From: Dehalococcoidia bacterium
Lineage (GTDB): Bacteria; Chloroflexota; Dehalococcoidia; Lucifugimonadales; UBA3495
DNA: 64,000 nucleotides
Assembly (NCBI GenBank): GCA_963668585.1
Contig: OY764869.1
Coordinates: 1,867,106-1,931,105 of the forward strand
Reading direction: 5' to 3'
The notes below the pieces were generated by a model. It was given only the letters and a program-made list of their open reading frames with translations, was not told the DNA's origin and made no database searches. A program made the position numbers and the translations under genes. This document shows, in pieces, positions 27,167 to 63,110 of this stretch (the stretch's first letter is position 1; each line of letters starts with the position of its first letter).

Positions 27167-27391
27167 GCGCCAACGCGGCCCAGGCCGCGCGCCGGGCGGA
27201 ACGAAATACGACAGGGGCCCAGTGGCGGTGGGCAATCATGGTATGCTATTTCGCGCTCGGTACGACGCGTTTCCGCCGTGCCCGGCACAAACCGGAAAGC
27301 GTCCGGTTTCGCGGTAGCCTGCTAAACGGCTGAAATGCCTGAAGGGCCTGGCACAAATATCCATTCGAGCGTAAAACTTGGAGCGTCAACA

Positions 27392-28417
27392 ATGAAATTC
27401 GGCATCATGGCAATGCCCCAGCATCCCTCTACAGATTCCGCCACCCAGCGATTCCACGAAACGGTCGAGTTGACCAAGCTGGCGCGAGACGCCGGATTCG
27501 GCTCCATTGCCTGCGGACAGCATTTCCTGTCGCCGCCGTACCAAAACCTGCAGAGCATCCCGTTGCTGGCGCGCCTGGCCGCCGACTCCGGCGACATGCA
27601 ACTCATCCTGTCCATTCTGCTGCTTCCCTTGTACTCTCCCGCCGACGTCGCCGAAACGGTGGCGACCCTGGACGTGATCAGCGGCGGCCGCGTGGTGCTT
27701 GGCGTGGGACTCGGTTATCGCGACATTGAGTACCAGGCGTTCAACGTCGAACGGCGCCACCGGGTGGGCCGCTTCATGGAGTCTCTGGAACTGGTGCAGC
27801 GGTTGTGGACTGAGGACGAGGTGACTTTCCACGGCAAGCATTTCAACCTGGACAACGCCACCTGCGCCATCCGGCCGGTCCAGGAACCCCATCCGCCCAT
27901 TTGGGTGGCCGCGAATTTCGATACGGTGGTGCGCCGGGCCGGAGAACTGGGCCTGCCGTGGTTCGTCAACCCCCACGCCACCCTGGAAACCCTGGAACGC
28001 CAGACCGCCATTTACCAGGCGGGTCTGGATGCCGGCGGCAAGGAGATGCCCCCGGAAATGCCCATCATCAAGGAGATGCACATCGCGCCCACCCACGAGG
28101 AAGCGATCCGAAACGCACAGCCGTACATGGAAGCCAAGTATCAGGCTTACGCCGATTGGGGACAGGACAAAGCGCTGCCCGGCGATGAGGACTTCCGCAT
28201 ACCCTTTGAGGAACTGGCGCGGGATCGTTTCATCCTCGGCAGCAGCGAAGAAGTGATACAGCAGATTGAAGACCACCACCAGCGCGTGGGAGCGAACCAC
28301 TTCATGTTCCGGATCTGGTACCCAGGGATGGATGTGCGCACGGCCATGCGCGTGGTGGAGCAGATGGGCGACACCGTCATCCCCTACTTTGAACAGCGGT
28401 ACGGGGACGATGCCTGA
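27392..28417 (+). CDS. LLM class flavin-dependent oxidoreductase
   Basis: MKFGIMAMPQ start and SGGRVVLGVGLGYR block. GGAG RBS. Trimmed from the track start at 27335. Confidence 0.9.
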   Translation: MKFGIMAMPQHPSTDSATQRFHETVELTKLARDAGFGSIACGQHFLSPPYQNLQSIPLLARLAADSGDMQLILSILLLPLYSPADVAETVATLDVISGGRVVLGVGLGYRDIEYQAFNVERRHRVGRFMESLELVQRLWTEDEVTFHGKHFNLDNATCAIRPVQEPHPPIWVAANFDTVVRRAGELGLPWFVNPHATLETLERQTAIYQAGLDAGGKEMPPEMPIIKEMHIAPTHEEAIRNAQPYMEAKYQAYADWGQDKALPGDEDFRIPFEELARDRFILGSSEEVIQQIEDHHQRVGANHFMFRIWYPGMDVRTAMRVVEQMGDTVIPYFEQRYGDDA

Positions 28418-38502: not shown

Positions 38503-40173
38503 TCAGCCCTCCTGCCCAGCGCCGCGCGCCCGCGCGTCCAGGCTCACTGCGATGCGAGAACGGAACGGCCTGACCGTGTTGGTGGCGTCCGGCACACCCA
38601 TGGGAACGACGAACACGGCTTGCTGACCGGCGGCGTGCGGCGAGAAGAACCTCGCCACGCTGTCGTCGTAGAACGTGAGTCCCGTCGCGCCCAAACCCAC
38701 TGAGTGCATACCCAGATAGAGGCGTCCACCGACGATTCCGGCGATGGTTTGTGCCATGCGGTAGCTTCTCGGCCCAAGTTGCCGTTCCATGGTGTTCAGG
38801 TCCGCCGTGATGAACGCAACCGCCGACGCATCCGCCGGCAGCGCCTGCTCAAATCCGAGGTGGCCGGCCATCTCCCGGAAATCGCCGGTTTTCAGGAGTC
38901 TGAGGCCGTTATAGTAGCGGTTGTAATAATATGCGCCGGGCTCGAGTCCTTCGACGGCGTTGACTATGAAATACAAACCGAGATGCGGACCGATCCCGTC
39001 CCCCAGGCCGGCGGCATTCATGCCACTGCCGGCAGCGTCCACCACGGCTCGGAACGCTTCCCATGGGATATATTCCCTGGCGAACCGGCGAGTGGAACCC
39101 CTGGATCGGATGCAGTCTTCCAGCGATGTTGAGGGCAATGCCTCCAGGTTCACGTCGGCGTCGAATCTGCCGTCGGATCCGGAACGCAGGGGGCGGAAAT
39201 TGTCGCCGGTGCCGTCCAATTCGTCCTTGTCAGATTGGAAGGCCCTTTGCGTGTCCGAGTTCCAGCGCGCTACTGACGCGGAGTCGAGCAGCGCGGATGC
39301 CTGGTGAACCTCGCGGCTCATCGGGTAGTCGAGGGCTCCCGCCGCAAGGTCATTGCTCTCCTGCGGGAGCATCCCGGGAACGTCGCCGGGGCCATCTGGC
39401 AGCATCCCGTCGGGCGTGCCCACGGAGGCGACCAAGGAGGGGGCTTCGGCCTGCCCGTCGATTCCAAAGTACCCCGTGAGCAGTCGGTCCACGAAACCGA
39501 AGCGGAGGCGGACTGCCACGTCCTCGGCGTTGGCGGTTGCCAGGAGGTTGGCGGTCATCGTTCCGAGATCCCAGTAGCAATAACGGTAACTGCGTTCCCG
39601 ATATTTCCACGCGCTGCGCCAGAAAACGGTGGTGAAAATCAGCGTGGCCGGGTATGCCGAATGGTCGTCGATGGCTCCGCCGACCCAACGGCGCAGGTCG
39701 CCGTTGCGCAGTCGCGCCAAGGTGCAATCACGGGGGTTGAAATGATATACCCCGGCCCTCAGCCCTTCCAGGTCGCCACACACCACGTACGTTTCGGTGG
39801 GGTACAGCGCACCGGCGGACGCGGCGGCGCGGTAATGGACTTCGCCGTCGCGGAGTTGCCTCCTCCGGATTACCGCCGCTGAGTGGTACAGCAGGCTGGT
39901 CAGATTTTCCAGCGTCAGTGGAGCGGAAGCGGCGTTGCCGCCGCGGATGGCGTCGAGAGTCGCCATGCCGGAGGTTGAATCGCCCGCAACGTCGGGCAAC
40001 CTGATAGGTCTGAGGTCGGGATATATTTTGTAAAGCGGCGGCTTGCTCTCCAGGTCAATGTACTGGAGTTTGGTGGCTTCGTTGAATCTCAAAGCGACAC
40101 CGTCGCTGATGCCTCTGTCCGCTGTTGCCATGGTGTTTCTCTCCAAGTCGCCAACCAATTGGCGCCCGCTCAC
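38503..40173 (-). CDS. Two-domain SagB/ThcOx-type (nitroreductase-superfamily) dehydrogenase
   Basis: 556 aa. The first half carries the SagB-type signature RAAASAGALYPTETYVV and the second half a nitroreductase-like domain (SRGSTRRFA...GLYFIV). The GTG start overlaps the folB stop (GTGA). Confidence 0.75.
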   Translation of the reverse strand: MSGRQLVGDLERNTMATADRGISDGVALRFNEATKLQYIDLESKPPLYKIYPDLRPIRLPDVAGDSTSGMATLDAIRGGNAASAPLTLENLTSLLYHSAAVIRRRQLRDGEVHYRAAASAGALYPTETYVVCGDLEGLRAGVYHFNPRDCTLARLRNGDLRRWVGGAIDDHSAYPATLIFTTVFWRSAWKYRERSYRYCYWDLGTMTANLLATANAEDVAVRLRFGFVDRLLTGYFGIDGQAEAPSLVASVGTPDGMLPDGPGDVPGMLPQESNDLAAGALDYPMSREVHQASALLDSASVARWNSDTQRAFQSDKDELDGTGDNFRPLRSGSDGRFDADVNLEALPSTSLEDCIRSRGSTRRFAREYIPWEAFRAVVDAAGSGMNAAGLGDGIGPHLGLYFIVNAVEGLEPGAYYYNRYYNGLRLLKTGDFREMAGHLGFEQALPADASAVAFITADLNTMERQLGPRSYRMAQTIAGIVGGRLYLGMHSVGLGATGLTFYDDSVARFFSPHAAGQQAVFVVPMGVPDATNTVRPFRSRIAVSLDARARGAGQEG

Positions 40174-46758: not shown

Positions 46759-47547
46759 ATGCTGAAACTCCCCACTTCCCGCCGGCGCCCGGCGATCCTC
46801 TCGGCGACGTGGCGGAATATCCTGCTGTTTTCCTGGCCGGTGCCAGATGAAACAGTTCAGAACTTGACGCCCGACGGCCTGGAGATAGACCGTTGGAACG
46901 GCGATGCGTATGTCAGCTTGGTCGGTCTCAGGTTCGAGAAGGTGAACCTGTTCGGGATTCCCGCGCCGGCCCGCAGTTACGACGAAATCAACCTGCGGTT
47001 TTACGTACGCCGAAAATTCCACGATGTTGACAGGCAACCGGGCGTAGTGTTCGTGCGGCAACTGGTGCCCCACCGGGTTACGGCGAGAGTGGCCCGTATG
47101 CTCTATGGAGAACCTTTTGAAGTAGCGACGGTGGGTCACGCGTACAACGCCGGCTTGAGCGGTAACGAGTCTCCGGCGCGCAGGGTCGAGTATTGGTGGG
47201 AAAACCGTGAAGGCTCGCACCGGATGTGGGCGGAAACGAACCTGACGCCCCAGCAGGCCCCACCCGGCTCGCTGGACGAATTTCTCACCGAACGATATTG
47301 GGGCTATAACGGCAAACCGGGATTGGGCACGCGAGCGTATCGGTTGGTGAGACCGGTGTGGGATGTCGCCAGGGCCACCACGGCGCGGGTGGAATGCGCG
47401 CCCGATGGCGTCGATGACACCGGGCTCGGCGGAATCATGCGGAGCGAGCCCGCCTCGGTACTGTTGGCCTGCGGATCGTGGGCTCAAATTGGCCTGCCGA
47501 GCGCATTGAATTCCAGGAGCGAAGGTTCCGAAAGCAAATCATGTTGA
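46759..47547 (+). CDS. DUF2071 (YqjF-like) domain protein
   Basis: The N-terminal WRNILLFSWPVPDETVQNLTPDGLEIDRWNGDAYVSLVGLRF pattern is characteristic of DUF2071. 262 aa. Confidence 0.72.
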   Translation: MLKLPTSRRRPAILSATWRNILLFSWPVPDETVQNLTPDGLEIDRWNGDAYVSLVGLRFEKVNLFGIPAPARSYDEINLRFYVRRKFHDVDRQPGVVFVRQLVPHRVTARVARMLYGEPFEVATVGHAYNAGLSGNESPARRVEYWWENREGSHRMWAETNLTPQQAPPGSLDEFLTERYWGYNGKPGLGTRAYRLVRPVWDVARATTARVECAPDGVDDTGLGGIMRSEPASVLLACGSWAQIGLPSALNSRSEGSESKSC

Positions 47548-47607
47548 GATTGCCCCATGGTGATTGGTAGAATGAGCCAGCCTAATCGTGTCCACAGGAG
47601 TTGAAAC

Positions 47608-48657
47608 GTGGTTGAACCAACCCGGCGCGCAGAAGTGTATCAATACCCCGATACGTTGGACGCGATTGAGGAGTGCTATCGCCGGGGCTGGACTGACGGC
47701 CTTCCTGTGATCCCGCCCACCGCCGAGCGAGTGGATGCCATGCTGGAAGCGGTTGGCTTGTCGCCGGACACAGTGTTGGGTGAGGTGCCGGTGCGGCGAC
47801 GGACTCTGACCGCCGAGCAGGCCGCCGCCAACGCGGTGATGGCGGGTTGCCTTCCGGCATATTTTCCCATCGTTTTGGCCACGCTGAGGGTGCTGTTCGA
47901 GCACGACCCCAACTGCATTCACGAGGTGTCGGCGGTGACCAACTCCACCGGATTGCTCACCATCGTCAATGGCCCGATACGGCGTGAGATTGAGTTGAAC
48001 TGCACCGACAATCTGTTCAGTCCGGGATACCGCGCCAACTCAACCATCGGACGCGCCCTGCGGCTCATATTAATCAACGTGTTTGAGCAACGCCCCGGCG
48101 TGCTGGACCGCGGGTGCATGGGCAGCCTGACCAAGTTCGGCGTGGTCTTTGGGGAAGACGAAGAAAATAGCCCCTGGGAACCGTTCCACGCCAGCATGGG
48201 CTTTTCACCGGAACAGTCAACGGTGACGGTGGCGACAATCCAGGACCCGTCCATGCACGGCAATCGATATGGTACGACGGGAGAGAGTCTGCTGGATTCG
48301 ATTGCCGATGGCATGGCGTCTCACGGTTTGGGGATCTATTTCGGCCGCGGAATCAAGTGGGTTTGGGTCGTCGGCCACTGGCATTCCGAACTCCTGGGGC
48401 GCCAGGGCTGGAGCCGCCGGGATATGCAGGAATACCTGTACGAGCGTGCTTGGCGATCAACGGGGCAATTGAAACGACTGGGGATGGCCAACGGAGCGGT
48501 GGTTGAGGGGGACGATGAGAAACAACAGATGACGGTGGACAGCCCTGACGATATCCTGATTGTTAAGGCGGGAGGCGACAGCGGCATCTACAGCGAGTTG
48601 ATCATGAACTATTTCGGCGTGCCGGCGGTTATCACCGAGATTACTGAAGGTGCGTGA
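47608..48657 (+). CDS. Conserved-looking protein of unknown function (GWTDGLPVIPPT motif)
   Basis: 349-aa ORF with normal composition. AGGAG RBS before GTG 47608. Lies 24 nt upstream of the UGSC-type gene. I cannot name a family. Confidence 0.7.
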   Translation: MVEPTRRAEVYQYPDTLDAIEECYRRGWTDGLPVIPPTAERVDAMLEAVGLSPDTVLGEVPVRRRTLTAEQAAANAVMAGCLPAYFPIVLATLRVLFEHDPNCIHEVSAVTNSTGLLTIVNGPIRREIELNCTDNLFSPGYRANSTIGRALRLILINVFEQRPGVLDRGCMGSLTKFGVVFGEDEENSPWEPFHASMGFSPEQSTVTVATIQDPSMHGNRYGTTGESLLDSIADGMASHGLGIYFGRGIKWVWVVGHWHSELLGRQGWSRRDMQEYLYERAWRSTGQLKRLGMANGAVVEGDDEKQQMTVDSPDDILIVKAGGDSGIYSELIMNYFGVPAVITEITEGA

Positions 48658-48681
48658 ACCCGGAGAAAAGAGGAGAATGAA

Positions 48682-49245
48682 ATGACTATTGGCAATGCCG
48701 CAACCGTTCAATTGATTGATCCGACCGGGTTTGATCCGGGAGAATCCCCGCTGGTCATGGCGGCGCGCCCGGTTGACCTTCGGGGCGGCCGACTGGGGCT
48801 GCTGGACAATTCCAAGGCCAACTCGGATGCCATTCTGTGGGCCATTGCGCGCGCGCTGGACGAGGAGTTCGAGTTTTCGAATATCCATTACGTCCAGAAA
48901 CACAGCGCTTCGTTGCCGCCGCACCCGGAAGTCATGGCTGACCTGCATCGGAACTCGGACTTTGTGATCGCCGGCGTGGGTGATTGAGGGGGCTGCTCGT
49001 CGGGCAGTTTGCACGACGGAATAACCCTGGAGCGGCAGGGCATCCCCGCAGCCACGATTATCACGACGGTGTTCGCGAACACCGCCCGGGCGTACACGCG
49101 CCTCATGGGTGTTCCCAACTTCCCGTATCTGATGTGCCCACACCCCATCACCAACGTGGATGGTGCAGCGCTACAGGCGCGCGCGCAGGAACTGATTCCG
49201 GGCGTGCGCAGTTTGCTCATCAACGGCGCCCTGACCTCCAATTAG
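48682..49245 (+). CDS. UGSC-family (seleno)protein candidate with in-frame TGA (Sec) at 48985-48987
   Basis: Track ORFs 48682..48987 and 49009..49245 share a frame with no further stop between them. Read through, the sequence is ...VIAGVGD-U-GGCSSGSLHDGITLERQGIP... (UxxC). GAGGAG RBS before ATG 48682. 187 aa. Confidence 0.72.
48998..49018 (+). promoter_or_regulatory. SECIS-like hairpin candidate downstream of UGA 48985-48987
   Basis: CGUCG-G-GCA / GUU / UGC-A-CGACG (5 bp, 1x1 mismatch, 3 bp), starting 10 nt after the UGA. An alternative fold is CUGC (48993-48996) / GCAG (49004-49007). Confidence 0.4.
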
Positions 49246-49272
49246 GCGCGTCCCGGATCGGATACCGTTGCC

Positions 49273-51057
49273 ATGGCAGGTTTTTCAAATTTCATTCGCC
49301 GCTTCGTCGGCAGGTTGCGCGACCAGGAAAGCGACGCACCGGAATCCCGGTTACCCGAAGCGATTCCGGGGTTGGATCGCGACCCCGTCCCGGAGCCACT
49401 GGACGTCTCGGACGGGGTGGTGGGCCGCGACCCGCCGGCCCTTTCCGTGGACGCGCCCCTGGCGACTCCGGACGTCGGCGGAATACCGGCACGGCCGGCG
49501 CAGAACCCGGAATTCGCCTTCACTTCCGAAAGGATGGCGACGCCGACGGCAGAATTTGCGGGCGCGGCAGTCGCGGAACCCGCCACGACCCCGATGGACG
49601 ATGGCGGGCTGCTTGACGATGATGTGCTGCGCGAAGACCCGCTGTCCACTGCCTGCCCGTATTGCGGGTTGGTTGACCAGAGAGTCGGGGCGCGTTGCCA
49701 GCGATGCTCCCAGGTTGTGGTGCGCCTGCCCGCGTGGGCTCAACACCGGCGGCACAACTGGCTGTTTGCCCGTCTTTCATGGAAAAGGCTAATATTCGCT
49801 TCCATAGTCGCCCTGCTGATCGTGTTCGTGGTTTGGGTGAACTACCCGTTCGCTCCGAATCCGTTGATCCTGCTGAAAAAGATCCAGTCCCAGATGACTG
49901 CCGACGTGAGTCCCGGTGTTTGGACCATCTCGGGCCGGGACTTACGCAACAGCCGCAGCATTGACGTCGGTTTTCCGCCTCCGGAGGGAACGGTGGTCTG
50001 GAATAGTTTCATTGCCGAACCGTTGAACTCTGAACCGGTGGCGCAGCATTCCAACATATACGTCGGGTCTGCGGACGGGATCTACTCGGTTGCGGAACAC
50101 GACGGCAAGATCAGAGAAGGTTGGGATGGCAACACGCCGGGACGCATCACCGGGGCCGCCGCGGTTGTGGAGTCGTATCTGTTCTTTGGCAGCACCGACC
50201 ATACCGTGAATGCCTGGAACGCGTTGACGGGCGATGCCTGGTGGAGTTTTCCTGCGGAAGATACAGTGGAAGTTTCCCCTGTTATCTCCGATGGGCTAGT
50301 GTACATAAGTTCAGGAAAGGGCTGGTTGTATGCGCTTGACGCCAACAATGGGTCTGTGATCTGGCAAACTCAATTGGACAGCGACGCCAGCGACGCCGTG
50401 GCCATCCATGATGGCAAGTTGTTTGTCGGGGACGACAAGGGGATATTCTACGTACTCTCAGCCCGCACTGGGCAGGAGTGGTTCCGGTACCGGACGCTGA
50501 AAACGATCTGGGGTTCTCCGGTTATTTCGGAAGACGGGACGCGGGCGTATTTTTCCTCCAGCGGCCAACTGTATGCGGTCAGCGCCGAGGAGCGAGAAGT
50601 GCCCGGCCTGTATCAATTCAAGAAGGTATGGGCCCAGTTGTGGTTGTGGCAAGTTCCCGGCATACCACGGCCACCCGGACAGCAGGGAGGCCTATGGCGG
50701 TTCGCGCCGGAGAATCCACTTCAGGGTATCTACAGCGCGCCAGCGTTGGCTGAAGACGAGCACGGACAAATTCTGTACGTTGGCGGTCTTGACCACACGA
50801 TGTACGCCCTGAACGCCCTGGATGGGTCTCAACTCTGGACGTTCGACGCCGAGGAGTCCGTTCTGGCGTCACCTGTGGTTATCAAGGATCGGCTCGTCTT
50901 TGGCGACGGAGCAGGCAACCTGTATTCGTTGGACCGCTTCAACGGGTCGCTCGACTGGAAGATATTTGTCGGTGGGCCAATCAAGATTCCGCCCACTATC
51001 AGCAACGAATTGCTGATTGTCCGTACCGATGACGGGCATGTTTACGGCATAAAGTGA
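49273..51057 (+). CDS. Membrane-anchored PQQ-like (BamB-type) beta-propeller protein with an N-terminal zinc ribbon
   Basis: CPYCG...CQRC ribbon, a TM segment LIFASIVALLIVFVVWV, then repeated propeller blades (YVGSADGIYSV, GWLYALDANNGSVIW, LYSLDRFNGSLDW). Confidence 0.85.
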   Translation: MAGFSNFIRRFVGRLRDQESDAPESRLPEAIPGLDRDPVPEPLDVSDGVVGRDPPALSVDAPLATPDVGGIPARPAQNPEFAFTSERMATPTAEFAGAAVAEPATTPMDDGGLLDDDVLREDPLSTACPYCGLVDQRVGARCQRCSQVVVRLPAWAQHRRHNWLFARLSWKRLIFASIVALLIVFVVWVNYPFAPNPLILLKKIQSQMTADVSPGVWTISGRDLRNSRSIDVGFPPPEGTVVWNSFIAEPLNSEPVAQHSNIYVGSADGIYSVAEHDGKIREGWDGNTPGRITGAAAVVESYLFFGSTDHTVNAWNALTGDAWWSFPAEDTVEVSPVISDGLVYISSGKGWLYALDANNGSVIWQTQLDSDASDAVAIHDGKLFVGDDKGIFYVLSARTGQEWFRYRTLKTIWGSPVISEDGTRAYFSSSGQLYAVSAEEREVPGLYQFKKVWAQLWLWQVPGIPRPPGQQGGLWRFAPENPLQGIYSAPALAEDEHGQILYVGGLDHTMYALNALDGSQLWTFDAEESVLASPVVIKDRLVFGDGAGNLYSLDRFNGSLDWKIFVGGPIKIPPTISNELLIVRTDDGHVYGIK

Positions 51058-53252: not shown

Positions 53253-54338
53253 TTAAACGTTCCTCAATTTGGGGTCCAGTTTGTCCCTTAGCCAGTCTCC
53301 CAGGAGGTTCATAGAGAGTACCGTAAGGACGATTGCCAGGCAAGGGAAAAGGAAAATCCACCAAGCGGTCGTGATCAGGTCTCTCCCATCAGCAACCATA
53401 ACCCCCCAAGCCGGCGTGGGCGCCGGGATACCTGCGCCCAGGAAGCTCAGGGTGGACTCCAGGATTATGACGTGGCCCACCTCCAAAGTGGCTAATACTA
53501 CCACTGTATTGACCAGATTGGGGAAAATGTGCCTCATCATTATGCGGGCGTTGGAAGCGCCGGAAACTCGCGCTCTGTCGATGAAGTCCTGCTGCTTGAT
53601 GGCGAGCGCTTCTCCTCTCACGACACGCGCGTAGCGCGCCCACAACAGCACCGCGATCACCACGATCACCGTGGTGAAACCGGCTCCGATGGCGGCTACC
53701 AGCACCAATGCCAGGAGTATGGAAGGGAAGGCCAGTTTGATATCGACAACGCGCATGATTACGGCGTCGGTTTTGCCGCCACGGTAGGCCGCGAGCATCC
53801 CCAGCACGGTGCCCAATCCGCCACCCAGAAGGATAGCGAGCGAGGATACAAGCAGTGAAATCCGGGCGCCGTGCATGATGCGGCTCAGGATGTCCCTACC
53901 CTGTTTGTCGGTGCCCAGTGGGTACTCCATGGAGCCGCCCTTTTGGGACAGGAACCGGAGGGTATCGCCCGGATTGACCTCGCCATCTTCGCCACCGGTA
54001 ATGATGGTCGCCTCGCCGCGTTCAACTTTGCGCTGGGCGTTGGACAGGCCAATTTCGACGTCGAGACGATTGCGATCGGCCCGTTGCACCACCATCCGTT
54101 GTTCGAAACTTTCCGATATCCAGAAAGGTGGAAGTTTGGCGTCGTCAAGCACTCCAATCCGTTGGCTGTGGGGCGCGAGCTGGTTTGCGAAAATCGCCGG
54201 AACCGCCAGGAGCGCAATGAGGACCAACAGCGGTATCACCGGCAGGCTGCGGGCTACCCGCAGGCCCGCGATCACCCGATTCTCGGGCTGAGGAGTTGCG
54301 GGAGCCGATGCCTCCGGAGTTGTAGTGACTGCTGCCAT
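53253..54338 (-). CDS. ABC transporter permease (OppC/DppC-like), module 1
   Basis: YPLGTDKQGRDILSR motif and BPD-transport domain, with an extended N-terminal extracytoplasmic segment. Confidence 0.92.
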   Translation of the reverse strand: MAAVTTTPEASAPATPQPENRVIAGLRVARSLPVIPLLVLIALLAVPAIFANQLAPHSQRIGVLDDAKLPPFWISESFEQRMVVQRADRNRLDVEIGLSNAQRKVERGEATIITGGEDGEVNPGDTLRFLSQKGGSMEYPLGTDKQGRDILSRIMHGARISLLVSSLAILLGGGLGTVLGMLAAYRGGKTDAVIMRVVDIKLAFPSILLALVLVAAIGAGFTTVIVVIAVLLWARYARVVRGEALAIKQQDFIDRARVSGASNARIMMRHIFPNLVNTVVVLATLEVGHVIILESTLSFLGAGIPAPTPAWGVMVADGRDLITTAWWIFLFPCLAIVLTVLSMNLLGDWLRDKLDPKLRNV

Positions 54339-54392
54339 AATGCACCTCGTTCTTTCAATCGTATCCGGATACGATTAGCGTCCCAACCCTGA

Positions 54393-55313
54393 CTATGAGT
54401 ATCTGATCCGCGGATCAATGTAGGCGTACAGCACATCCACCATGATGTTGATCAGTACAAACGCGGTGGCGAACAGCAACACCACGGCCTGCACCACCAC
54501 GTAGTCTCGGAACAGGATGGCATCAATCACCAGCGCTCCCAGGCCAGGCCAGGCAAACACTGTTTCGATGACCACCGAACCGGTGATCAGGACTGCGCCG
54601 ATCAGGCCGAAATAAGTCAGTGGCACGATCAACGCATTCCGGAAGCAGTGCTTCCAGATGACCTTCCATTCAGCGACGCCCTTGATCCGGGCCAGCTTGA
54701 CATACTCGGTGTCCAAAACTTCCAGCATGGAAGATCTGGTCAGGCGCATCAGAGCGGCCACATTGTAGTAACCCAATGCCACCGCCGGCAGGATCATGTA
54801 TTCAAACCCGCCGCTGCCCGACGTTGGGAAAAGGTCAAGTTGGACTGCAAAAATCCACATCAGGATCAGCCCCACCGCAAACGTGGGGGCCGACTGGCCA
54901 AGGATGGCGAACAGCTTCCCTCCGTAGTCGAAGGGTGTGTCTTTCTTTATCGCGACGAGCACGCCGATGGGAAAAGCGATCACTCCGCTGACGATAAGGG
55001 CTAGGGCTGACAGTTTGACGGTGTTGGGCAATCGTTCGACGATCAACTCGCCGGCGGAGGCGTTTGGCCACGCCAACGCTTCACCGAGATCGCCACGGAA
55101 CAACTTCCCCAAGTATAGGATGTATTGCATGTGCAGGGGCTTGTCCAGCCCCCACTCTTTCTTGGTCAACTCTATCTGTTCTTCCGACGCTTCCTCCGGC
55201 AGCAACACGTTGAGGGGATCCCCAGAAACGCGAGCCAACGCGAAGGTCACCGTGCTGATTATGAAAATTGCCAGGATGCCCTGGGCAACTCTTCGCAAAA
55301 TGTAGCGTTGCAT
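54393..55313 (-). CDS. ABC transporter permease (OppB/DppB-like), module 1
   Basis: MQRYILRRVAQGILAIF start, the EYVKLARIKG (EAA-loop) motif and C-terminal DPRIRY. Confidence 0.92.
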   Translation of the reverse strand: MQRYILRRVAQGILAIFIISTVTFALARVSGDPLNVLLPEEASEEQIELTKKEWGLDKPLHMQYILYLGKLFRGDLGEALAWPNASAGELIVERLPNTVKLSALALIVSGVIAFPIGVLVAIKKDTPFDYGGKLFAILGQSAPTFAVGLILMWIFAVQLDLFPTSGSGGFEYMILPAVALGYYNVAALMRLTRSSMLEVLDTEYVKLARIKGVAEWKVIWKHCFRNALIVPLTYFGLIGAVLITGSVVIETVFAWPGLGALVIDAILFRDYVVVQAVVLLFATAFVLINIMVDVLYAYIDPRIRYS

Positions 55314-55348
55314 GGCTGCTGTTCCCCCCGTCCAGTTGAAGTCCGGCG

Positions 55349-55385
55349 CCTCCGGCGTCACACCATTTCAGAGCGACGCCGGAGG
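55349..55385 (-). promoter_or_regulatory. Intra-operon hairpin between the binding-protein and permease genes (module 1)
   Basis: 11-bp stem CCTCCGGCGTC (55349-55359) / GACGCCGGAGG (55375-55385), located between the SBP stop (55428) and the permease start (55313). Confidence 0.55.
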
Positions 55386-55427
55386 AAAGGTTGCTGCTGA
55401 CCGTTGTGATTGGGTATCCCGTCAGAG

Positions 55428-57407
55428 TCAGTAACGGACGCCCGTGATGTGTTCCAGGTCGGTGAATTGCCCACCGTATGGTCCGAGATAGATGTACTCC
55501 GCGACCACCTCGGGATCTATCACTACCTGAACCGACAGCGTATGCAGCGGAATGGTCGCAACTTCATAGAACAACTCGTCAGACACGGCGTGCCAGTGAC
55601 CGAGTTGCTCATCGAAATCGAGTGAGTTGAGAGCGTTGAAGGTGTTCTGCCACACCGTGTCGCTCACATAGAAGCGCATGAAGCGTTCCGGGCTATAGGC
55701 GAAGTGAACCGTCGGGTGCGGCGGTTCCGCGTAGCCGCGGAAGGGATAGACGCAACAGTTTGTAGTGGCGCCGCGGTATTCCGCCCGCCACGCGGAGAAT
55801 TCCATCTCGCGGATCTCGGTGGTCAGACCGATTTTCTCCCACATTCCGGCGATGGCGACGACGTAGTCCTTCATCTCCGGCAGTCCGCTCATCGTGTAGC
55901 TGATCATCGGGACGTTGAATCCGTTGGGATAGCCGGCCTCGGCCAGCAGTTCCCTAGCCCTCGCCGGGTCGTGTCCGTAGAGTTCTTCCCAGGAACCTTC
56001 CCAATCGGGATTGTAACCGGCATATTCGCCGCCGAACGCCTCGGCGCTGGGGATCAGCCCGGCCACGCGGGCTTCTGAGCCCTGGCCGTCGAACAGGATG
56101 TCGCGGATGGCGTCGCGGTCAATGGCCTTGTTCATCGCCATGCGCACCAATTTGCCCGTTTCGCCCGGGGCCGCCCACGGCACGGTCGAGTCGTAAGAAG
56201 CGGCGGTGTAGGGATCAAATTCGGGCCCTTCCTTGGTGGCGAAGTACATTCCTCCGAATACCATCATGCTGTTGACGGCGACCACCTGGCTGGGAGACAG
56301 TTCCAGACCATCATCCAGTGCCTGTCCCACCAAAGCGCGGTCGATGGTGGCCAGTTGAGCTTCCCGCGCCAGCATAGCGGCCAGGCGGGTGGACGCTTCT
56401 TCAATTATCTTGATTTCGATGCTGTCCCAGTCCGGGTCAACGCGGTAGTGGTCGCCTGGCGCGCGTTCCCATAGCCAGCCAATGCCTTTTTCGAAGTTGG
56501 CGAACTGGTAGGGTCCGAGCCTTGCCGGGCCCTGCTCCAGGAGCGTGTCTTCCCCGGCGGTGCAATAGCCATCAAGGTGTGCGCTGGTGTCGAAGGATTC
56601 GTAGTCGGTCTCTCCGTTGGGGCACCCTGTGTCCCATTGGGCCTTGCTCGAAATGGGAAGGCCGCGATAGCCGGAGATCCAGTAATCGAAAATCAACTCG
56701 GGCCGGGCGCCCATGGAAATGTTGATTTCATAGTCGCTCAGCACTTCCGGAACTGCTTGTGGGTTGGTTCGGAAATAGTCCGAGTATGACGCCGCGCATA
56801 CGGGGTTGGTGTAGTAGTTGAGGGAATTCACGATGTCATGCGCGGTGAATTCGCCGTATCCGAAATGGAACTCAACCCCTTCACGCAGCTTGAAGTTCCA
56901 CGTCCTGCCATCGGCGCTGACGCTCCAGTCGGTTGCCAGTTGCGGCTCGATGGCTCCGGTGTACCGGTTGGGGTCCAACAGGAATTCGTGAGAAGGTCGG
57001 TGTTGGCTGGTCGCGCTGCCGGTTACGTCGCAGTCCATGATGCCCTGGCGCGTCTGCTGCGAGAAGAGGAATATCAGGTCTCTAGTCTTCAACTCGCCAT
57101 CAGTTGCCGCCGATGCTTCCGTCGGTTGGGGTTGCGCCACCGGTGTGGTCCCGACGAACGACGGGCGAGTGGGGGCGGACGTAGCCGCCGGCTGGGCGGA
57201 TGTAGCAGTCGGAGACGCCTCTTGCTGTCCGGATGAACCTGTGGCGGGCGCCTGAGTGGCCTCAGGGGCCGCAGCTGCCGGCGCAGTGGTCGATTCCGCT
57301 GCTGGCGCAGACTCTTGGGCCCCGCCGCACGCGACAAGGGAGAGCATAGCCACCAAAGCCGCGGCGGTGATCATGATTGGCCAACGAAACGGGCTTATCC
57401 TTCTCAT
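55428..57407 (-). CDS. ABC transporter substrate-binding lipoprotein, family 5 (peptide/nickel/opine type), module 1
   Basis: Lipobox LSLVAC, an Ala/Pro/Thr/Gln-rich linker, then a family-5 SBP body. 659 aa. GGAGGG RBS. Confidence 0.9.
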   Translation of the reverse strand: MRRISPFRWPIMITAAALVAMLSLVACGGAQESAPAAESTTAPAAAAPEATQAPATGSSGQQEASPTATSAQPAATSAPTRPSFVGTTPVAQPQPTEASAATDGELKTRDLIFLFSQQTRQGIMDCDVTGSATSQHRPSHEFLLDPNRYTGAIEPQLATDWSVSADGRTWNFKLREGVEFHFGYGEFTAHDIVNSLNYYTNPVCAASYSDYFRTNPQAVPEVLSDYEINISMGARPELIFDYWISGYRGLPISSKAQWDTGCPNGETDYESFDTSAHLDGYCTAGEDTLLEQGPARLGPYQFANFEKGIGWLWERAPGDHYRVDPDWDSIEIKIIEEASTRLAAMLAREAQLATIDRALVGQALDDGLELSPSQVVAVNSMMVFGGMYFATKEGPEFDPYTAASYDSTVPWAAPGETGKLVRMAMNKAIDRDAIRDILFDGQGSEARVAGLIPSAEAFGGEYAGYNPDWEGSWEELYGHDPARARELLAEAGYPNGFNVPMISYTMSGLPEMKDYVVAIAGMWEKIGLTTEIREMEFSAWRAEYRGATTNCCVYPFRGYAEPPHPTVHFAYSPERFMRFYVSDTVWQNTFNALNSLDFDEQLGHWHAVSDELFYEVATIPLHTLSVQVVIDPEVVAEYIYLGPYGGQFTDLEHITGVRY

Positions 57408-57496
57408 GGAACCCTCCTTTTGGTTCTATATGGGTTGGCTCGAAGCTGTTTGCGTGGGTTGCCCTCCGGTTTGACGATGTGAATTGCTGCTTCCCG

Positions 57497-58585
57497 TTAG
57501 ACGTTGCGCAGCCTGGGGTCGAGGCGGTCGCGCAGCCAGTCGCCCAGCAGGTTCATGGACAGAACGGTCAAAACGATGGCCAAGCACGGGAACAGGAAAA
57601 TCCACCATGAACTGGTGATGACCTCCCGTCCGTCGGCGGCCATCAGTCCCCAGGCGGGTTGCGGCCGCGGAATACCGGCGCCCAGGAAACTCAACGTCGC
57701 CTCAAGGATGATGACGTGTCCTACTTCCAGGGTCGCCAGGACGATGACTGTATTGAACACGTTGGGGAATATGTGCCGGGCCATGATCCTGGTGTTGGAC
57801 GCCCCGGCCACCCTGGCGCGATCGATGAAGTCGCGTTCCTTGATCGACAGGGCTTCGCCGCGGACCACGCGAGCGTAGCGCGCCCACAGCAGCAGAGCGA
57901 TCACGATGACGACAGTGCTGAATCCCGACCCGATGGCCACGACCAGCGTCAGGGCCAAAAGGATCGAGGGGAAAGCCAGTTTGATGTCCACGATGCGCAT
58001 GAGCACCGCGTCAACCAGACCTCCTCTGAATGCCGCCAGCATCCCCAGCGCTGTTCCAAGGAAGCCGCCGAGCAGGATGGCAAGACACGAAACAGCCAGG
58101 GATATCCGCGCTCCGTGCATCAGTCGGCTGAGAACGTCGCGGCCCTGCTTGTCGGTGCCGAGGGGGTATTCCCAGTTGCCACCGGGCTCGACGCGCACCA
58201 TAGTTTCGCCGATGTCGGGCTGGCCGTTGCCGTTTGCGTCTATCAAGTTACCAGCGCCGCTGTCGAAGTTCCGGCGGGCATTGTTGATGCTTACTTCGGC
58301 GTTTTGGTCCCGGGCGCGTTGGACGATTTGTCGTTCCGTTGCGCGGTCAGGAACCCATCCGGGCGGTTCGAGGACCCGTTGGAGATCTCCGATGGTGTGG
58401 TCGTGCTGAGCCAACACGTCGGCAAAAGCGGCCGGCACGATCAGGAATATTATCAGCACCAGCAGGGGTATGACCGGGAACCGTCGGATTTCACGCCAGA
58501 CGTTGGAGGTTGTAAACCCTCCTTGTGCCGCCGTCGGGGCGGATTGATCTGCCTGTCCGCCAGGAGCGGTGGTTTGCACAGCCAT
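57497..58585 (-). CDS. ABC transporter permease (OppC/DppC-like), module 2
   Basis: Paralog of 53253-54338 (YPLGTDKQGRDVLSRLMHGARISL). Confidence 0.92.
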   Translation of the reverse strand: MAVQTTAPGGQADQSAPTAAQGGFTTSNVWREIRRFPVIPLLVLIIFLIVPAAFADVLAQHDHTIGDLQRVLEPPGWVPDRATERQIVQRARDQNAEVSINNARRNFDSGAGNLIDANGNGQPDIGETMVRVEPGGNWEYPLGTDKQGRDVLSRLMHGARISLAVSCLAILLGGFLGTALGMLAAFRGGLVDAVLMRIVDIKLAFPSILLALTLVVAIGSGFSTVVIVIALLLWARYARVVRGEALSIKERDFIDRARVAGASNTRIMARHIFPNVFNTVIVLATLEVGHVIILEATLSFLGAGIPRPQPAWGLMAADGREVITSSWWIFLFPCLAIVLTVLSMNLLGDWLRDRLDPRLRNV

Positions 58586-58608
58586 GAATCATTTCCCTCC
58601 GGCAATTC

Positions 58609-59526
58609 CTATCCGTAGCGGATGCGCGGGTCAACGTACGCGTAGGTTACGTCCGTGACGATGTTTATCGCCACGTACAACAACGCGAAGAGCATCACCA
58701 CGGCTTGTACGGTTATGTGGTCCTTGGAGTTGATGGCTTCGATCACCATCAGTCCGATTCCGGGCCACGCGAAGACCGTTTCAATCACCACTGAACCGGT
58801 GATCACCACGGCGAATATGAGGCTAAAGTAGGTCAGCGGTCCAATCAGGGCGTTGCGGAAACAGTGTTTCCACACGATTTTCCACTCTGGGATTCCCTTG
58901 ATTCGGGCCAGTTTGACGTACTCGGTATCCAGCACTTCAAGCATTGAGGAGCGCGTGAGGCGCATGATCGCCGCCACGTTGTAATACCCCAGCGCGAAGC
59001 CGGGCATCAGCATGTGCTTCAACCCGCCTTTTCCTGAGGTGGGCAGCCATCCCAGTTGCACGGCCAGGATCCACATCAGGATGAGGCCGACGGCGAAGGT
59101 CGGCGCAGATTGGCCAAGGATGGCGAACATCTTGCCCCCGGCATCGAACCAGGAGTCCTTTTTGACGGCTGAGAGCACCCCGATGGGGAAGGCAATCAAG
59201 CCGGTGATGATCAGCGCGAACGATGATAACTGAAGGGTTGCTGGGAGCCGTTCGGCGATGAGTTCGGCGACCGGGCGGTCCCACTTGAATGACGTTCCCA
59301 GGTCTCCGGTGAGGAGACGCTTCATGTAGGTGAAATATTGGACGTGGAGCGGTTTGTCCAGTCCCCACTGGGCCCGTATTCGCTCGATCTGCTCTTTGCC
59401 TGATTCCTCGTCCAGGATTGCCGCCAATGGATCGCCGGCAACCCGGGACAGGGAGAAAACGATCAGGCTGATCACGAAAACGGCCAGGAGTCCCTGTAAC
59501 AGCCGCAAGACAATGAAACGCTGCAT
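58609..59526 (-). CDS. ABC transporter permease (OppB/DppB-like), module 2
   Basis: Paralog of 54393-55313, sharing the blocks FAILGQSAPTFAVGLILMWI and MRLTRSSMLEVLDTEYVKLARIKG. Confidence 0.92.
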   Translation of the reverse strand: MQRFIVLRLLQGLLAVFVISLIVFSLSRVAGDPLAAILDEESGKEQIERIRAQWGLDKPLHVQYFTYMKRLLTGDLGTSFKWDRPVAELIAERLPATLQLSSFALIITGLIAFPIGVLSAVKKDSWFDAGGKMFAILGQSAPTFAVGLILMWILAVQLGWLPTSGKGGLKHMLMPGFALGYYNVAAIMRLTRSSMLEVLDTEYVKLARIKGIPEWKIVWKHCFRNALIGPLTYFSLIFAVVITGSVVIETVFAWPGIGLMVIEAINSKDHITVQAVVMLFALLYVAINIVTDVTYAYVDPRIRYG

Positions 59527-62079: not shown

Positions 62080-62922
62080 TTACAGAACAGCTTCAGCGAT
62101 CCGGTCAAGTTCGTCCAGAGCGGCTGCAGTGGTGGTGTCTCCCAATCTGACGATCACCCGGTTTGCGCCGGCCGCTTCAAAACCGGCGATCAGGTCCCGG
62201 TCCGGTGGTTGGCCAAACACCGATATTGAGATGTCGGACGGGTCCCTGCCCGAGGCTTCGGCAAGTTCGTCGATTGCTGCGCGCCCCGCGGCGATCTGGT
62301 CAGGGCTGGCCGCAGTCGGCATCCATCCATCCCCCCACCTGGCCACCCGACGGAACACGTTTCGTGCGTTGCCGCCCAGAATCACCGGCGGGCCGCCTTT
62401 GCGAGCGGGTTTGGGATTGCATTGCACCAGGGGGAAATCATAATAGCGTCCGTGGTACTCGGCGGCGTCCTGAGTCCACAGGGCGCGCATGGCTTCAATG
62501 CTCTCCCTGGCCTGCGTCCACCGGTGGTCGAAATTGCCGCCCATGATCTCGGTTTCTTCACGAAGCCAACCGGTGCCTATCCCCAGCAGGAAACGTCCCT
62601 CACTGAAACGGTCCAGCGTGGCGATGGCTCCGGCGAGGATGAGCGGGTTCCTTTCCGGTATCAGTGTTATGCCGGTGCCCAGTTTTATTCTGTTGGTGAC
62701 TGCGGACGCGCGGGCCAGTCCGATGTACGGGTCCGCCATATCGCTCATGTAATCGGGTATGGAACCGTCGGGAGAACCGGGATACCTGGAAACTGGGTTG
62801 ACCGGCATCACCGGATGCTCCGGCAACCAGATCGACTCGAACCCCAGGGCTTCCGCCTTGGCTGCTATGTCCGCGACGTCAATAGAATTCGTAGAAATCG
62901 ACATATTGAGGCCGATGTCCAT
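62080..62922 (-). CDS. LLM class F420-dependent (or flavin-dependent) oxidoreductase
   Basis: MDIGLNM...AEALGFESIWLPEHP and GRFLLGIGTGW blocks. About 280 aa. Confidence 0.88.
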   Translation of the reverse strand: MDIGLNMSISTNSIDVADIAAKAEALGFESIWLPEHPVMPVNPVSRYPGSPDGSIPDYMSDMADPYIGLARASAVTNRIKLGTGITLIPERNPLILAGAIATLDRFSEGRFLLGIGTGWLREETEIMGGNFDHRWTQARESIEAMRALWTQDAAEYHGRYYDFPLVQCNPKPARKGGPPVILGGNARNVFRRVARWGDGWMPTAASPDQIAAGRAAIDELAEASGRDPSDISISVFGQPPDRDLIAGFEAAGANRVIVRLGDTTTAAALDELDRIAEAVL

Positions 62923-63110
62923 CGATAACCTCCCTTCGGGCATCCCGTGCCGGTGGTGTCCAATAATCTGCGGGATGATAGCACGGTGGGTTCCGCACTG
63001 TCATTGGCCGCGCTTCACGCCTCATGTCCCTGGCGAACCGACCTTTTGTCCCGACTCCGGGGCGCGGATGCTGCCGCGATGTTGTCCGTTCTACGGCGGC
63101 GTGGTGATGC

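What the first reader, a model, noticed from the sequence alone, without database searches (positions are those of the whole stretch)
48682..49245. In-frame TGA joins two ORFs into a UGSC-type selenoprotein (G-D-U-G-G-C-S-S) with a SECIS-like hairpin
Seen in the sequence:
- ORFs 48682..48987 and 49009..49245 share a frame. They are separated only by TGA (48985-48987) plus 21 stop-free nt encoding GGCSSGS.
- The read-through product is 187 aa, with the recoded position two residues before a Cys: ...FVIAGVGD-[TGA]-GGCSSGSLHDGITLERQGIPAATIITT..., a UxxC redox-type motif.
- A hairpin (48998-49018, CGUCG-G-GCA/GUU/UGC-A-CGACG) begins 10 nt after the UGA. This is close to the ~11-nt spacing described for the minimal E. 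coli fdhF SECIS.

From memory: this matches the UGSC-containing family found in ocean-metagenome selenoproteome surveys and modelled at NCBI as 'UGSC family (seleno)protein', whose Cys forms read GDCGSCSS.

Standard gene callers would split or truncate this gene.
Basis: partly seen in the sequence, partly recalled or inferred. Interest (0 to 1): 0.7.

Follow-up and report, generated by a model that had tools for sequence, protein, structure and literature searches.

The report
UGSC selenoprotein gene with SECIS hairpin
The "stop" codon at 48985 almost certainly encodes selenocysteine in a member of the known UGSC family of predicted redox selenoproteins; the find is correct but ordinary, except that the gene is always paired, and sometimes fused, with an uncharacterised 349-residue protein that points to its unknown function.

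Summary
The observation and the interpretation both hold. ORFs 48682-48987 and 49009-49245 are one 187-codon gene interrupted by TGA (48985-48987). The read-through product passes the curated cut-offs of NCBIfam NF041046 (131.5 bits against 125) and Pfam PF24696 (172 bits), and both matches span the TGA. All 123 TGA-form sequences (122 relatives plus the window; two clades, down to about 41% protein identity) have TGA at this column. In family representatives the column is Cys in 136 of 139. It coincides with a collapse of synonymous variation (normalised entropy 0.08 against 0.72; p about 1e-5) that five Cys-form genes lack. It also shows one compensatory pair change. Its G23-U24 loop on a GCA/UGC stem mirrors the E. 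coli fdhF SECIS. No Sec machinery lies in the window, so that test stays open; selenoprotein-rich Dehalococcoidia genomes are reported. Beyond the finding: the 349-aa gene 47608-48657 (no Pfam, no solved relative) is adjacent in 118 of 119 loci with room and is fused to UGSC in 9 of 150 representatives. The UGSC model is flavodoxin-like, not thioredoxin-like. Verdict: a new member of a known kind, with function still unknown.

The parts
47544..47573 (+). Promoter-like site (TTGAGA-18-TAGAAT, TG-extended) upstream of the two-gene cassette
   Evidence: Consensus scan, 10 of 12 matches; 1 site found against 0.7 expected, so weak evidence. AGGAG lies 6 nt before the GTG at 47608.
47608..48657 (+). 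Partner gene: 349-aa uncharacterised protein, conserved neighbour and occasional fusion partner of UGSC
   Evidence: No Pfam, NCBIfam or PDB sequence match. More than 7,400 homologues, none with a functional name (every source name shown is 'hypothetical' or 'uncharacterized protein'; most have none). Immediately upstream on the same strand in 80 of 80 genome loci. Immediately downstream in 38 of 39 distant-clade loci with room. Fused to UGSC in 9 of 150 representatives. AF2 model pLDDT 83.6, pTM 0.86, best PDB TM-score only 0.29. Invariant C23, C81, H239, H259.
48670..48675 (+). Shine-Dalgarno-like GAGGAG, 6 nt before the ATG of the UGSC gene
   Evidence: Read directly from the sequence.
48682..49245 (+). 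Complete UGSC-family selenoprotein gene (187 codons plus TAG stop), read through the TGA
   Evidence: NF041046 131.5 bits (cut-off 125); PF24696 172.3 bits over profile 2-170 of 172. The frame stays open for 81-96 codons after the TGA in all 80 relatives.
48985..48987 (+). In-frame TGA = selenocysteine codon (residue 102, motif G-D-U-G-G-C)
   Evidence: TGA in all 123 TGA-form sequences (122 relatives plus the window), while the gene's true stop varies (TGA 31, TAG 28, TAA 21). Aligned to Cys in Cys forms.
48994..48996 (+). TGC codon of the second redox residue (Cys105) of the UxxC motif
   Evidence: Cys at this position in all 123 TGA-form sequences and all 5 Cys-form genes and invariant in the 36 Cys homologues of alignment A5; a minority of family representatives lack it (e.g. 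GDCGTSTS, 6 of 150).
48998..49018 (+). SECIS hairpin: 5-bp lower stem, G.A mismatch (G.U in the distant clade), 3-bp GCA/UGC upper stem, GUU loop (49007-49009)
   Evidence: -8.5 kcal/mol alone. Meets the bSECIS criteria. 93.8% of cells paired across 72 distinct sequences, a compensatory C-G to G-C change at pair 21-27, and 0 of 500 shuffles reach the covariation score. Conserved footprint 48997-49020.

Best explanation
One gene, 48682-49245, encodes a 187-residue UGSC-family selenoprotein. When the ribosome reaches UGA at 48985-48987, the hairpin 48998-49018 is expected to recruit SelB carrying Sec-tRNA(Sec), so that selenocysteine is inserted instead of termination. The hairpin presents a G-U in its apical loop 20-21 nt after the UGA (inferred from the known bacterial mechanism).

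The protein is predicted to be a small flavodoxin-like alpha/beta domain. Sec102 and Cys105 (U-G-G-C) sit at the end of strand 3 and the start of helix 3, and would cycle between a selenol/thiol and a selenenylsulfide.

It most probably works as the redox-active subunit of a two-component system with the 349-aa protein encoded 24 nt upstream (47608-48657). It would pass reducing equivalents to or from that protein's conserved cysteines or its bound substrate. Substrate and reaction are unknown.

Shown here: gene continuity, family membership, the Sec/Cys column, SECIS conservation, and partner linkage and fusion. Inferred: actual Sec insertion, redox cycling, and physical or functional coupling to the partner.
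For: Gene and family:
- The curated HMM cut-offs are passed and the matches span the TGA. The two halves match consecutive parts of the model, 2-92 and 101-170.

Recoding:
- TGA is present in all 123 TGA-form sequences, from two clades down to about 41% identity. The true stop codon drifts among all three stops.
- About half of the window's ORFs end in TGA, so TGA is a normal stop in this genome.
- Cys occupies the column in 136 of 139 representatives, and 4 more end exactly one residue before it.

SECIS:
- Normalised synonymous entropy is 0.079 at codons +4 to +10 against 0.718 elsewhere. This is the lowest window in the gene (Mann-Whitney p about 1e-5).
- Codons +5 (TCG) and +7 (AGT) are the same in 123 of 123 Sec forms. 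Five Cys forms use TCC, GGT, AGC and others, and their hairpins fold at -5.2 and -1.0 kcal/mol in the two tested.
- L109 and L111 carry two synonymous changes that turn C21-G27 into G21-C27.
- The rival MFE hairpin loses 21-33 of 72 sequences at three pairs.
- All four bSECIS criteria are met: 3-nt loop, G then U, 19-nt spacing, -8.5 kcal/mol. A loop G about 20 nt after the UGA on a 6-8-bp stem is the general rule (PMC4605307).
- The verified E. coli fdhF SECIS has the same GCA/UGC apical stem with G23-U24.

Partner and redox context:
- The partner is adjacent in 80 of 80 and 38 of 39 loci, with the gene order inverted between clades, and no third gene is conserved.
- Natural UGSC-partner fusions exist.
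- Single representatives are fused to a pyridine-nucleotide-disulphide oxidoreductase domain or to a NifU-like domain.

Lineage:
- Dehalococcoidia MAGs with 46-49 predicted selenoproteins are reported (PMC13326102).
Against: - No selA, selB, selD or tRNA-Sec lies in the 64-kb window, and the rest of the genome could not be examined.
- There is no experimental evidence of selenium incorporation for this family in the literature read here; it is described as bioinformatically predicted with unknown function.
- Structural covariation rests on one pair in two sequences, probably a single event. Otherwise the hairpin is invariant, which neither supports nor contradicts pairing.
- Thermodynamic folding of the longer stretch prefers another hairpin and is not better than shuffles.
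- Only five Cys-form genes served as the control, and they still form 6-8 of the 9 pairs.
- No Rfam family matches.
- The functional coupling to the partner rests on gene neighbourhood and fusion only. The partner's fold has no informative match (best TM 0.29).
Confidence: 0.9

Rival explanations
1. The TGA is a genuine stop: a nonsense mutation, pseudogene or sequencing error, or two separate small genes (a 101-aa product and a 78-aa product started at TTG 49009).
For: Gene callers annotate it that way in public data. TGA is the commonest stop in this window. No Sec machinery is seen in the window.
Against: TGA is kept at the same column in all 123 TGA-form sequences across two clades, and the downstream frame stays open and conserved for 81-96 codons. 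True stops in the same genes drift among TGA, TAG and TAA. The two pieces are consecutive halves of one Pfam domain. Full-length homologues have Cys at this column. A pseudogene would not keep purifying selection downstream, nor a conserved RNA hairpin.
Confidence: 0.02
2. The UGA is read through, but not as selenocysteine: a near-cognate Cys or Trp tRNA, or an alternative genetic code in which UGA is a sense codon, gives a Cys-like or Trp protein.
For: Sec machinery could not be demonstrated for this genome. Some lineages reassign UGA (general knowledge).
Against: About half of the ORFs in the window, including glmS and the partner gene itself, end in TGA, so the codon is not reassigned. The RNA hairpin immediately downstream is conserved only in TGA forms and fits the SelB-binding consensus. 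Selenoprotein-rich Dehalococcoidia are reported.
Confidence: 0.05
3. The nucleotide conservation after the TGA reflects something other than a SECIS, for example codon bias, amino-acid constraint, or the alternative hairpin at positions 4-28 acting as a ribosome pause or attenuator.
For: The MFE fold of the 42- and 61-nt stretches is the 4-28 hairpin. The peptide CSSGSL(H/L)D is itself highly conserved. Cys forms still form 6-8 of the 9 pairs.
Against: The constraint is at synonymous sites of 4- and 6-fold degenerate codons, and the 5 Cys-form genes encoding nearly the same peptide do not share it. Positions 6, 8 and 9 of the alternative hairpin vary freely and break pairs in 21-33 of 72 sequences. 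The L109/L111 double change breaks its pair 11-21 but preserves pair 21-27 of the SECIS hairpin. The conserved footprint (13-36) extends past the end of the alternative hairpin.
Confidence: 0.03

Closest known systems
UGSC-containing (seleno)protein family (NCBIfam NF041046; Pfam PF24696; Zhang & Gladyshev 2008, PMC2398784)
   Same: It passes both curated HMM cut-offs over the full model. It has a UxxC motif with Sec at the family's Sec/Cys column. Sec forms dominate in environmental data, as reported (255 Sec against 21 Cys in GOS; here 42 against 5 in the metagenome scan). Function is unknown. The fusion with an unnamed domain ('Unknown_1') reported in 2008 probably corresponds to the partner found here.
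   Different: The motif reads U-G-G-C rather than U-G-S-C. The host is a Dehalococcoidia-type (Chloroflexota) genome. The AF2 model of a close Cys homologue is flavodoxin-like, and no thioredoxin-fold protein appears among the 50 listed matches, so it does not show the 'likely Trx-like fold' suggested in 2008. The identity of 'Unknown_1' could not be checked because the figure is held only as an image.
E. coli fdhF SECIS (bacterial SelB-binding hairpin)
   Same: It lies immediately 3' of the UGA inside the coding sequence. The apical stem is GCA/UGC, with G23 and U24 (counted from the U of UGA) in the loop. There is an irregularity just below the apical stem (bulged U17 in fdhF, a G19.A29 mismatch here). 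The 3' strand reads GU[C/U]UGCAC in both. The roles of G23, U24 and U17 in SelB binding are from my own knowledge of the fdhF literature, not from a paper read here.
   Different: The loop has 3 nt (GUU) rather than 4 (GGUC). The lower stem is 5 continuous G-C-rich pairs. The hairpin starts 10 nt rather than 11 nt after the UGA. No binding data exist, and no Rfam model matches.
Selenoprotein B subunits of glycine and D-proline reductases (GrdB/PrdB, Pfam PF07355)
   Same: Working analogy only: a UxxC selenoprotein encoded next to, and acting with, a separate partner subunit. PrdB is also listed with a UxxC motif and is abundant in the same ocean surveys.
   Different: No sequence relationship: Pfam reports no GRDB hit even at E <= 10. 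The partner has no Pfam match at all, so it matches no Pfam-modelled reductase subunit family. Membership is not claimed.
Thioredoxin-fold UxxC/CxxU selenoproteins (Trx-like, Prx-like, SelW-like)
   Same: The redox motif sits at the N-terminus of a helix following a beta-strand. It is presumed to carry out thiol/selenol-disulfide exchange.
   Different: The predicted topology is five parallel beta-alpha units. The best structural matches are flavodoxins, SsuE and G-domains at TM 0.4-0.5, and no thioredoxin-fold protein appears among the 50 listed matches.

Membership tests
UGSC family (NF041046 / PF24696) | Whole-protein score at or above the curated cut-off of the family model | tested here: met
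   NF041046 131.5 bits against cut-off 125. PF24696 172.3 bits against 25. The Sec was written as Cys for scoring.
UGSC family (NF041046 / PF24696) | One continuous domain that spans the TGA | tested here: met
   Profile 2-146 of 147 and 2-170 of 172 are covered in one stretch. The halves alone cover 2-92 and 101-170.
UGSC family (NF041046 / PF24696) | Sec/Cys column coincides with the TGA, with a second Cys three residues on (UxxC) | tested here: met
   Cys in 36 of 36 intact close homologues and in 136 of 139 representatives. The commonest motif is GDCGSCS[AS]. The window reads GD-U-GGC-SS.
Bacterial selenoprotein gene (SelB/SECIS-dependent UGA recoding) | In-frame UGA conserved among orthologues, with conserved coding sequence downstream | tested here: met
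   All 123 TGA-form sequences have TGA, the frame stays open downstream, and the true stop is variable.
Bacterial selenoprotein gene (SelB/SECIS-dependent UGA recoding) | bSECIS consensus: 3-9-nt loop on a 4-16-bp stem; G in the first two loop positions (then G or U); 16-37 nt from UGA to loop; MFE <= -7.5 kcal/mol (PMC13188914) | tested here: met
   Loop GUU; 8 bp (9 in the distant clade) with one internal mismatch; 19 nt of spacing; -8.5 kcal/mol (-12.6 in the distant clade). bSECISearch itself was not available.
Bacterial selenoprotein gene (SelB/SECIS-dependent UGA recoding) | Evolutionary constraint on the RNA element beyond the protein code | tested here: met
   Synonymous entropy 0.079 against 0.718, p about 1e-5. 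The constraint is absent in 5 Cys-form genes. One compensatory pair change; 0 of 500 shuffles reach the covariation score.
Bacterial selenoprotein gene (SelB/SECIS-dependent UGA recoding) | selA, selB, selC (tRNA-Sec) and selD present in the same genome | not testable with these tools
   None in the 64-kb window. Lineage-level support only (PMC13326102).
Bacterial selenoprotein gene (SelB/SECIS-dependent UGA recoding) | Selenium actually incorporated at the UGA position | not testable with these tools
   This needs 75Se labelling or mass spectrometry. The family is described as predicted only.
Thioredoxin-fold oxidoreductases (the fold suggested for UGSC in 2008) | Trx fold (mixed sheet, beta-alpha-beta-alpha-beta-beta-alpha) with the redox motif at the helix-1 N-terminus | tested here: not met
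   The AF2 model of Cys homologue P0008 (pLDDT 88.6) has five beta-alpha units. Foldseek's best matches are flavodoxins, SsuE and G-domains, and no Trx-fold protein is among the 50 listed matches.
GrdB/PrdB selenoprotein B family (PF07355) | Match to the GRDB family model | tested here: not met
   No Pfam hit other than UGSC, even at E <= 10.

The most novel reading that the evidence does not exclude
UGSC and the 349-aa Pfam-less protein together form a widespread, uncharacterised two-component selenoenzyme. It occurs as separate genes in either order, or as a single fused polypeptide, in Chloroflexota, Entotheonella, Binatia, Rokubacteria and others. UGSC would be the Sec/Cys redox module, possibly recharged by a thioredoxin-reductase-like flavoprotein. 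The partner, whose confident model has no close structural relative, would be a new catalytic domain. That would give one of the most abundant 'orphan' environmental selenoprotein families a defined partner and a route to its function.
Probability: 0.55. Interest if true: 0.55.

Novelty: new member of a known kind. Interest (0 to 1): 0.33.

Why it matters
For annotation: the gene should be called as one 187-codon selenoprotein gene. Public gene calls for nearly all Sec-form relatives are truncated or split, so proteomes of these Dehalococcoidia-type genomes under-report it.

For biology: UGSC is one of the most abundant predicted selenoprotein families in aquatic metagenomes, yet it has no known function. 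The near-obligate pairing and occasional fusion with a large, unnamed protein family (more than 7,400 homologues, no Pfam model) gives a concrete, testable hypothesis: co-expression, complex formation and redox coupling. The very uniform SECIS of this family (CGUCGGGCAGUNUGCNCGACG), so like that of E. coli fdhF, could also allow heterologous Sec-form expression in E. coli with little engineering.

Tried and rejected
- **Rfam** at gathering threshold on the whole window, and at E <= 10 on 48600-49300: nothing relevant; only three chance-level hits.
- **Single-sequence folding** of 42- and 61-nt stretches: it returns a different hairpin with a non-significant z-score, which the comparative data reject.
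- **Search for Sec machinery:** no tRNA in the window. NCBIfam scans of 45 of the window's ORFs (40, plus the five around the finding) found no SelA, SelB or SelD.
- **Scan for other TGA-joined ORF pairs:** 120 candidates, all compatible with the spurious long ORFs of a 61% G+C genome. Only 48985 has a redox-motif context.
- **PDB sequence searches** for both proteins: nothing.
- **Fold search for the partner:** only weak matches, to class I fumarate hydratase and to Toblerone-fold cyclic amide hydrolases (TM 0.25-0.29). I do not rely on them.
- **Identity of the 2008 'Unknown_1' fusion domain:** the supplement holds it as an image only.
- **Exact-sequence look-up of the window's partner protein** to find the source record: not on record.
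- **Papers read for the G23/U24/U17 and 11-nt statements on fdhF:** not found in the three papers opened. Those details rest on my own knowledge, but the fdhF sequence itself was verified.
- **Relation to GrdB/PrdB** was considered and rejected: no Pfam hit.

Full report
**1. The observation.**
The sequence is as described. An ATG ORF (48682-48987, 101 codons) ends in TGA. Twenty-one stop-free nucleotides later, a TTG ORF (49009-49245) continues in the same frame. Read through, the product is 187 residues, with ...FVIAGVGD-U-GGC-SSGSLHDGITLE.... A GAGGAG motif lies 6 nt before the ATG. The hairpin CGUCG-G-GCA/GUU/UGC-A-CGACG occupies 48998-49018, leaving 10 nt between the UGA and its first base.

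**2. Family membership.**
With the Sec written as Cys, the protein scores 131.5 bits on NCBIfam NF041046 'UGSC family (seleno)protein' (curated cut-off 125; profile 2-146 of 147). It scores 172.3 bits on Pfam PF24696 'UGSC' (profile 2-170 of 172). As a control, the two ORFs scored separately match consecutive parts of the Pfam model: 2-92 at 69.6 bits and 101-170 at 68.8 bits. They are therefore two halves of one domain.

**3. The TGA is conserved as TGA and aligns with Cys.**
- A scan of species-representative genomes returned 80 loci, mostly Dehalococcoidia/Chloroflexota MAGs and three Entotheonella, at 63-87% protein identity. All 80 have TGA at this column, and the frame stays open for 81-96 further codons.
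- The real stop of the same genes drifts (TGA 31, TAG 28, TAA 21).
- A metagenome scan seeded with Cys-form homologues found a more distant clade (about 41% identity to the window protein) with 42 TGA forms and 5 Cys forms.
- In total, 123 of 123 TGA-form sequences (the window included) keep TGA.
- In the protein database, 11 of 14 close homologues are gene calls that end exactly at ...G[VI]GD. The two intact full-length ones read GVGD-C-GACSSGSL.
- Thirty-six further full-length homologues all have Cys there.
- In an exhaustive HMM search the family has 1,847 cluster representatives at E <= 0.001. Among the best 150, Cys holds the column in 136 of the 139 that have a residue there, and four more end one residue before it.
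- TGA is otherwise a normal stop in this genome: about half of the window's ORFs end in it, including glmS and the partner gene.

**4. The SECIS.**
*Single-sequence folding is ambiguous.* Alone, the 21-nt hairpin folds at -8.5 kcal/mol (z -3.3). In a 42- or 61-nt context, however, the MFE structure is another hairpin (positions 4-28, counting the U of UGA as 1), with an unremarkable energy.

*The comparative data decide.*
- Across 80 distinct gene sequences of the window clade, codons for conserved degenerate amino acids carry a mean normalised synonymous entropy of 0.718. At codons +4 to +10 it is 0.079. This is the lowest 7-codon window in the gene (Mann-Whitney p about 1e-5).
It does not match the MFE hairpin, whose positions 6, 8 and 9 vary freely.
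The G19.A29 mismatch of the window clade becomes G.U in the distant clade.
- Two sequences (L109, L111) carry two synonymous changes, GGC to GGG and CTG to CTC. These convert C21-G27 into G21-C27. None of 500 shuffles reaches the observed covariation score.
- The MFE hairpin loses pairs in 21-33 sequences at three positions, and the same double change breaks it.
- The five Cys-form genes encode nearly the same peptide with other codons (TCC, GGT, AGC...). Codon +7 is AGT in 123 of 123 Sec forms and in 0 of 5 Cys forms. The two Cys-form equivalents that were folded gave -5.2 and -1.0 kcal/mol.

*Fit to the published consensus.* The hairpin satisfies the four published bSECIS constraints: loop of 3-9 nt on a stem of 4-16 bp; G, then G or U, at the start of the loop; 16-37 nt from the UGA; MFE <= -7.5 kcal/mol (PMC13188914). 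It also fits the general description of a 6-8-bp stem with a loop G about 20 nt after the UGA (PMC4605307).

*Resemblance to fdhF.* The E. coli fdhF element was confirmed at 100% identity inside annotated fdhF in 5,419 of 5,426 genomes. It has the same GCA/UGC apical stem, with G23-U24 at the same distance from the UGA.

*Limits.* Covariation is a single event, the Cys control is small, and no Rfam model matches.

**5. Sec machinery.**
The window holds no tRNA and no Rfam family. None of the 45 ORFs scanned with NCBIfam is SelA, SelB or SelD. The window is ordinary chromosome (polA, glmS, aspartate kinase, thrB, gcvPB, many F420/LLM oxidoreductases, peptide ABC transporters). The source record could not be identified, so this test remains open. 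At lineage level, a 2026 database paper lists Dehalococcoidia MAGs with 46-49 predicted selenoproteins (PMC13326102). No second selenoprotein candidate was evident in the window.

**6. Context: a conserved two-gene cassette.**
- The gene 24 nt upstream (47608-48657, 349 aa) has no Pfam, NCBIfam or PDB sequence match. It has more than 7,400 homologues, none carrying a functional name (every source name shown is 'hypothetical' or 'uncharacterized protein'; most have none).
- It lies immediately upstream on the same strand in 80 of 80 genome loci, whereas the other neighbours are shared by only 24-30 close relatives.
- In the distant clade it lies immediately downstream (gaps mostly 7-136 nt) in 38 of the 39 loci with room, including four of the five Cys forms.
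- No third gene family recurs.
- Nine of the 150 best UGSC representatives are single polypeptides carrying UGSC followed by this domain, for example P0255 (E = 6e-60 to the window's partner). This is probably the 'UGSC/Unknown_1 fusion' noted in 2008 (PMC2398784), but that figure is not readable here.
- One representative is fused to a pyridine-nucleotide-disulphide oxidoreductase domain and one to a NifU-like domain. These are single cases that could be gene-calling artefacts.
- A promoter-like site (47544-47573) and Shine-Dalgarno motifs before both genes are compatible with one operon, though this is weak evidence.

**7. Structures.**
- The AF2 model of Cys homologue P0008 (pLDDT 88.6) has five beta-alpha units. 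The Sec-equivalent Cys98 lies between strand 90-96 and helix 99-114.
- Foldseek finds only generic flavodoxin-like and G-domain matches (TM 0.4-0.5), and no thioredoxin-fold protein appears among the 50 listed matches. The 'likely Trx-like fold' of the 2008 paper is therefore not supported.
- The partner's model is confident (pLDDT 83.6, pTM 0.86), but its best PDB matches have TM <= 0.29.
- The partner has invariant Cys23, Cys81, His239 and His259.

**8. Interpretation.**
The gene is a genuine Sec-encoding member of the UGSC family with a canonical, fdhF-like bacterial SECIS (confidence about 0.9). By inference, the U-x-x-C pair forms a reversible selenenylsulfide. Adjacency in both gene orders, together with the fusions, argues that UGSC serves the 349-aa protein as a dedicated redox module. 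This is comparable in logic, but not in sequence, to selenoprotein B subunits of the glycine and proline reductases (about 0.55).

**9. Novelty.**
The family, its UxxC motif and its abundance have been in the literature since 2007-2008, and it has curated HMMs. Selenoprotein-rich Dehalococcoidia are catalogued. The added value here is threefold: the quantitative SECIS evidence, the near-universal partner linkage, and the fold assignment.

Noticed in passing
window 47608-48657 (+); loci L001-L126: A 349-aa protein family with no Pfam model, no solved relative and more than 7,400 homologues is the near-obligate neighbour of UGSC. It lies upstream in the window clade and downstream in a distant clade, and it is fused to UGSC in 9 of 150 family representatives. 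Its confident AF2 model has no close structural match.
   Followed up: yes
P0262, P0293 (family representatives): Single UGSC representatives are fused to a pyridine-nucleotide-disulphide oxidoreductase (TrxR-like, with CGTC) domain and to a NifU-like domain. These hint at the electron source or at an Fe-S context, but they could be gene-calling artefacts.
   Followed up: partly
window 18783-20561 (-): The N-terminal residues 10-109 of this 593-aa ORF weakly match the C-terminal part of the TsoB rhodanese/DsbD-like selenoprotein model (50 bits against a cut-off of 805). The upstream ORF is in a different frame, so no read-through candidate was seen.
   Followed up: partly
window 13109-14965 (-): A 5'-nucleotidase/UshA-like protein with a weak secondary hit to the 'UshA-like (seleno)protein' model (44 bits against 275). 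No in-frame TGA with a redox context was found there.
   Followed up: partly
window 17608-18669, 27335-28414 (+), 62083-62943 (-): Several luciferase-like/F420-dependent (LLM) oxidoreductase genes. A SagB-type dehydrogenase (38506-40173, -) and two tandem sets of Opp/Nik-type ABC permeases (53256-59526, -) are also present.
   Followed up: no
window 9331-12855 (+): A 1,175-aa ORF whose only family match is a 'choice-of-anchor R' domain near the N-terminus; otherwise uncharacterised.
   Followed up: no
P0007, P0198, P0199: Some database 'full-length' UGSC proteins are gene calls whose central region, around the Sec/Cys motif, does not align with the family and reads as unrelated sequence. They probably come from frameshifts or wrong-frame gene calls and could contaminate family alignments.
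   Followed up: partly
L056, L070, L071 (Entotheonella); P0071, P0112, P0116 (Binatia, Methylomirabilota/Rokubacteria): The cassette is shared at about 62-70% protein identity between Dehalococcoidia and unrelated phyla, some of them sponge symbionts. This suggests horizontal transfer of the two genes as a unit.
   Followed up: no
window 48982-48984 and relatives: The Asp codon just before the UGA is GAT in 80 of 80 distinct window-clade gene sequences (window included), but mostly GAC in the distant clade. This may be a clade-specific context effect on recoding, or simply shared ancestry.
   Followed up: partly
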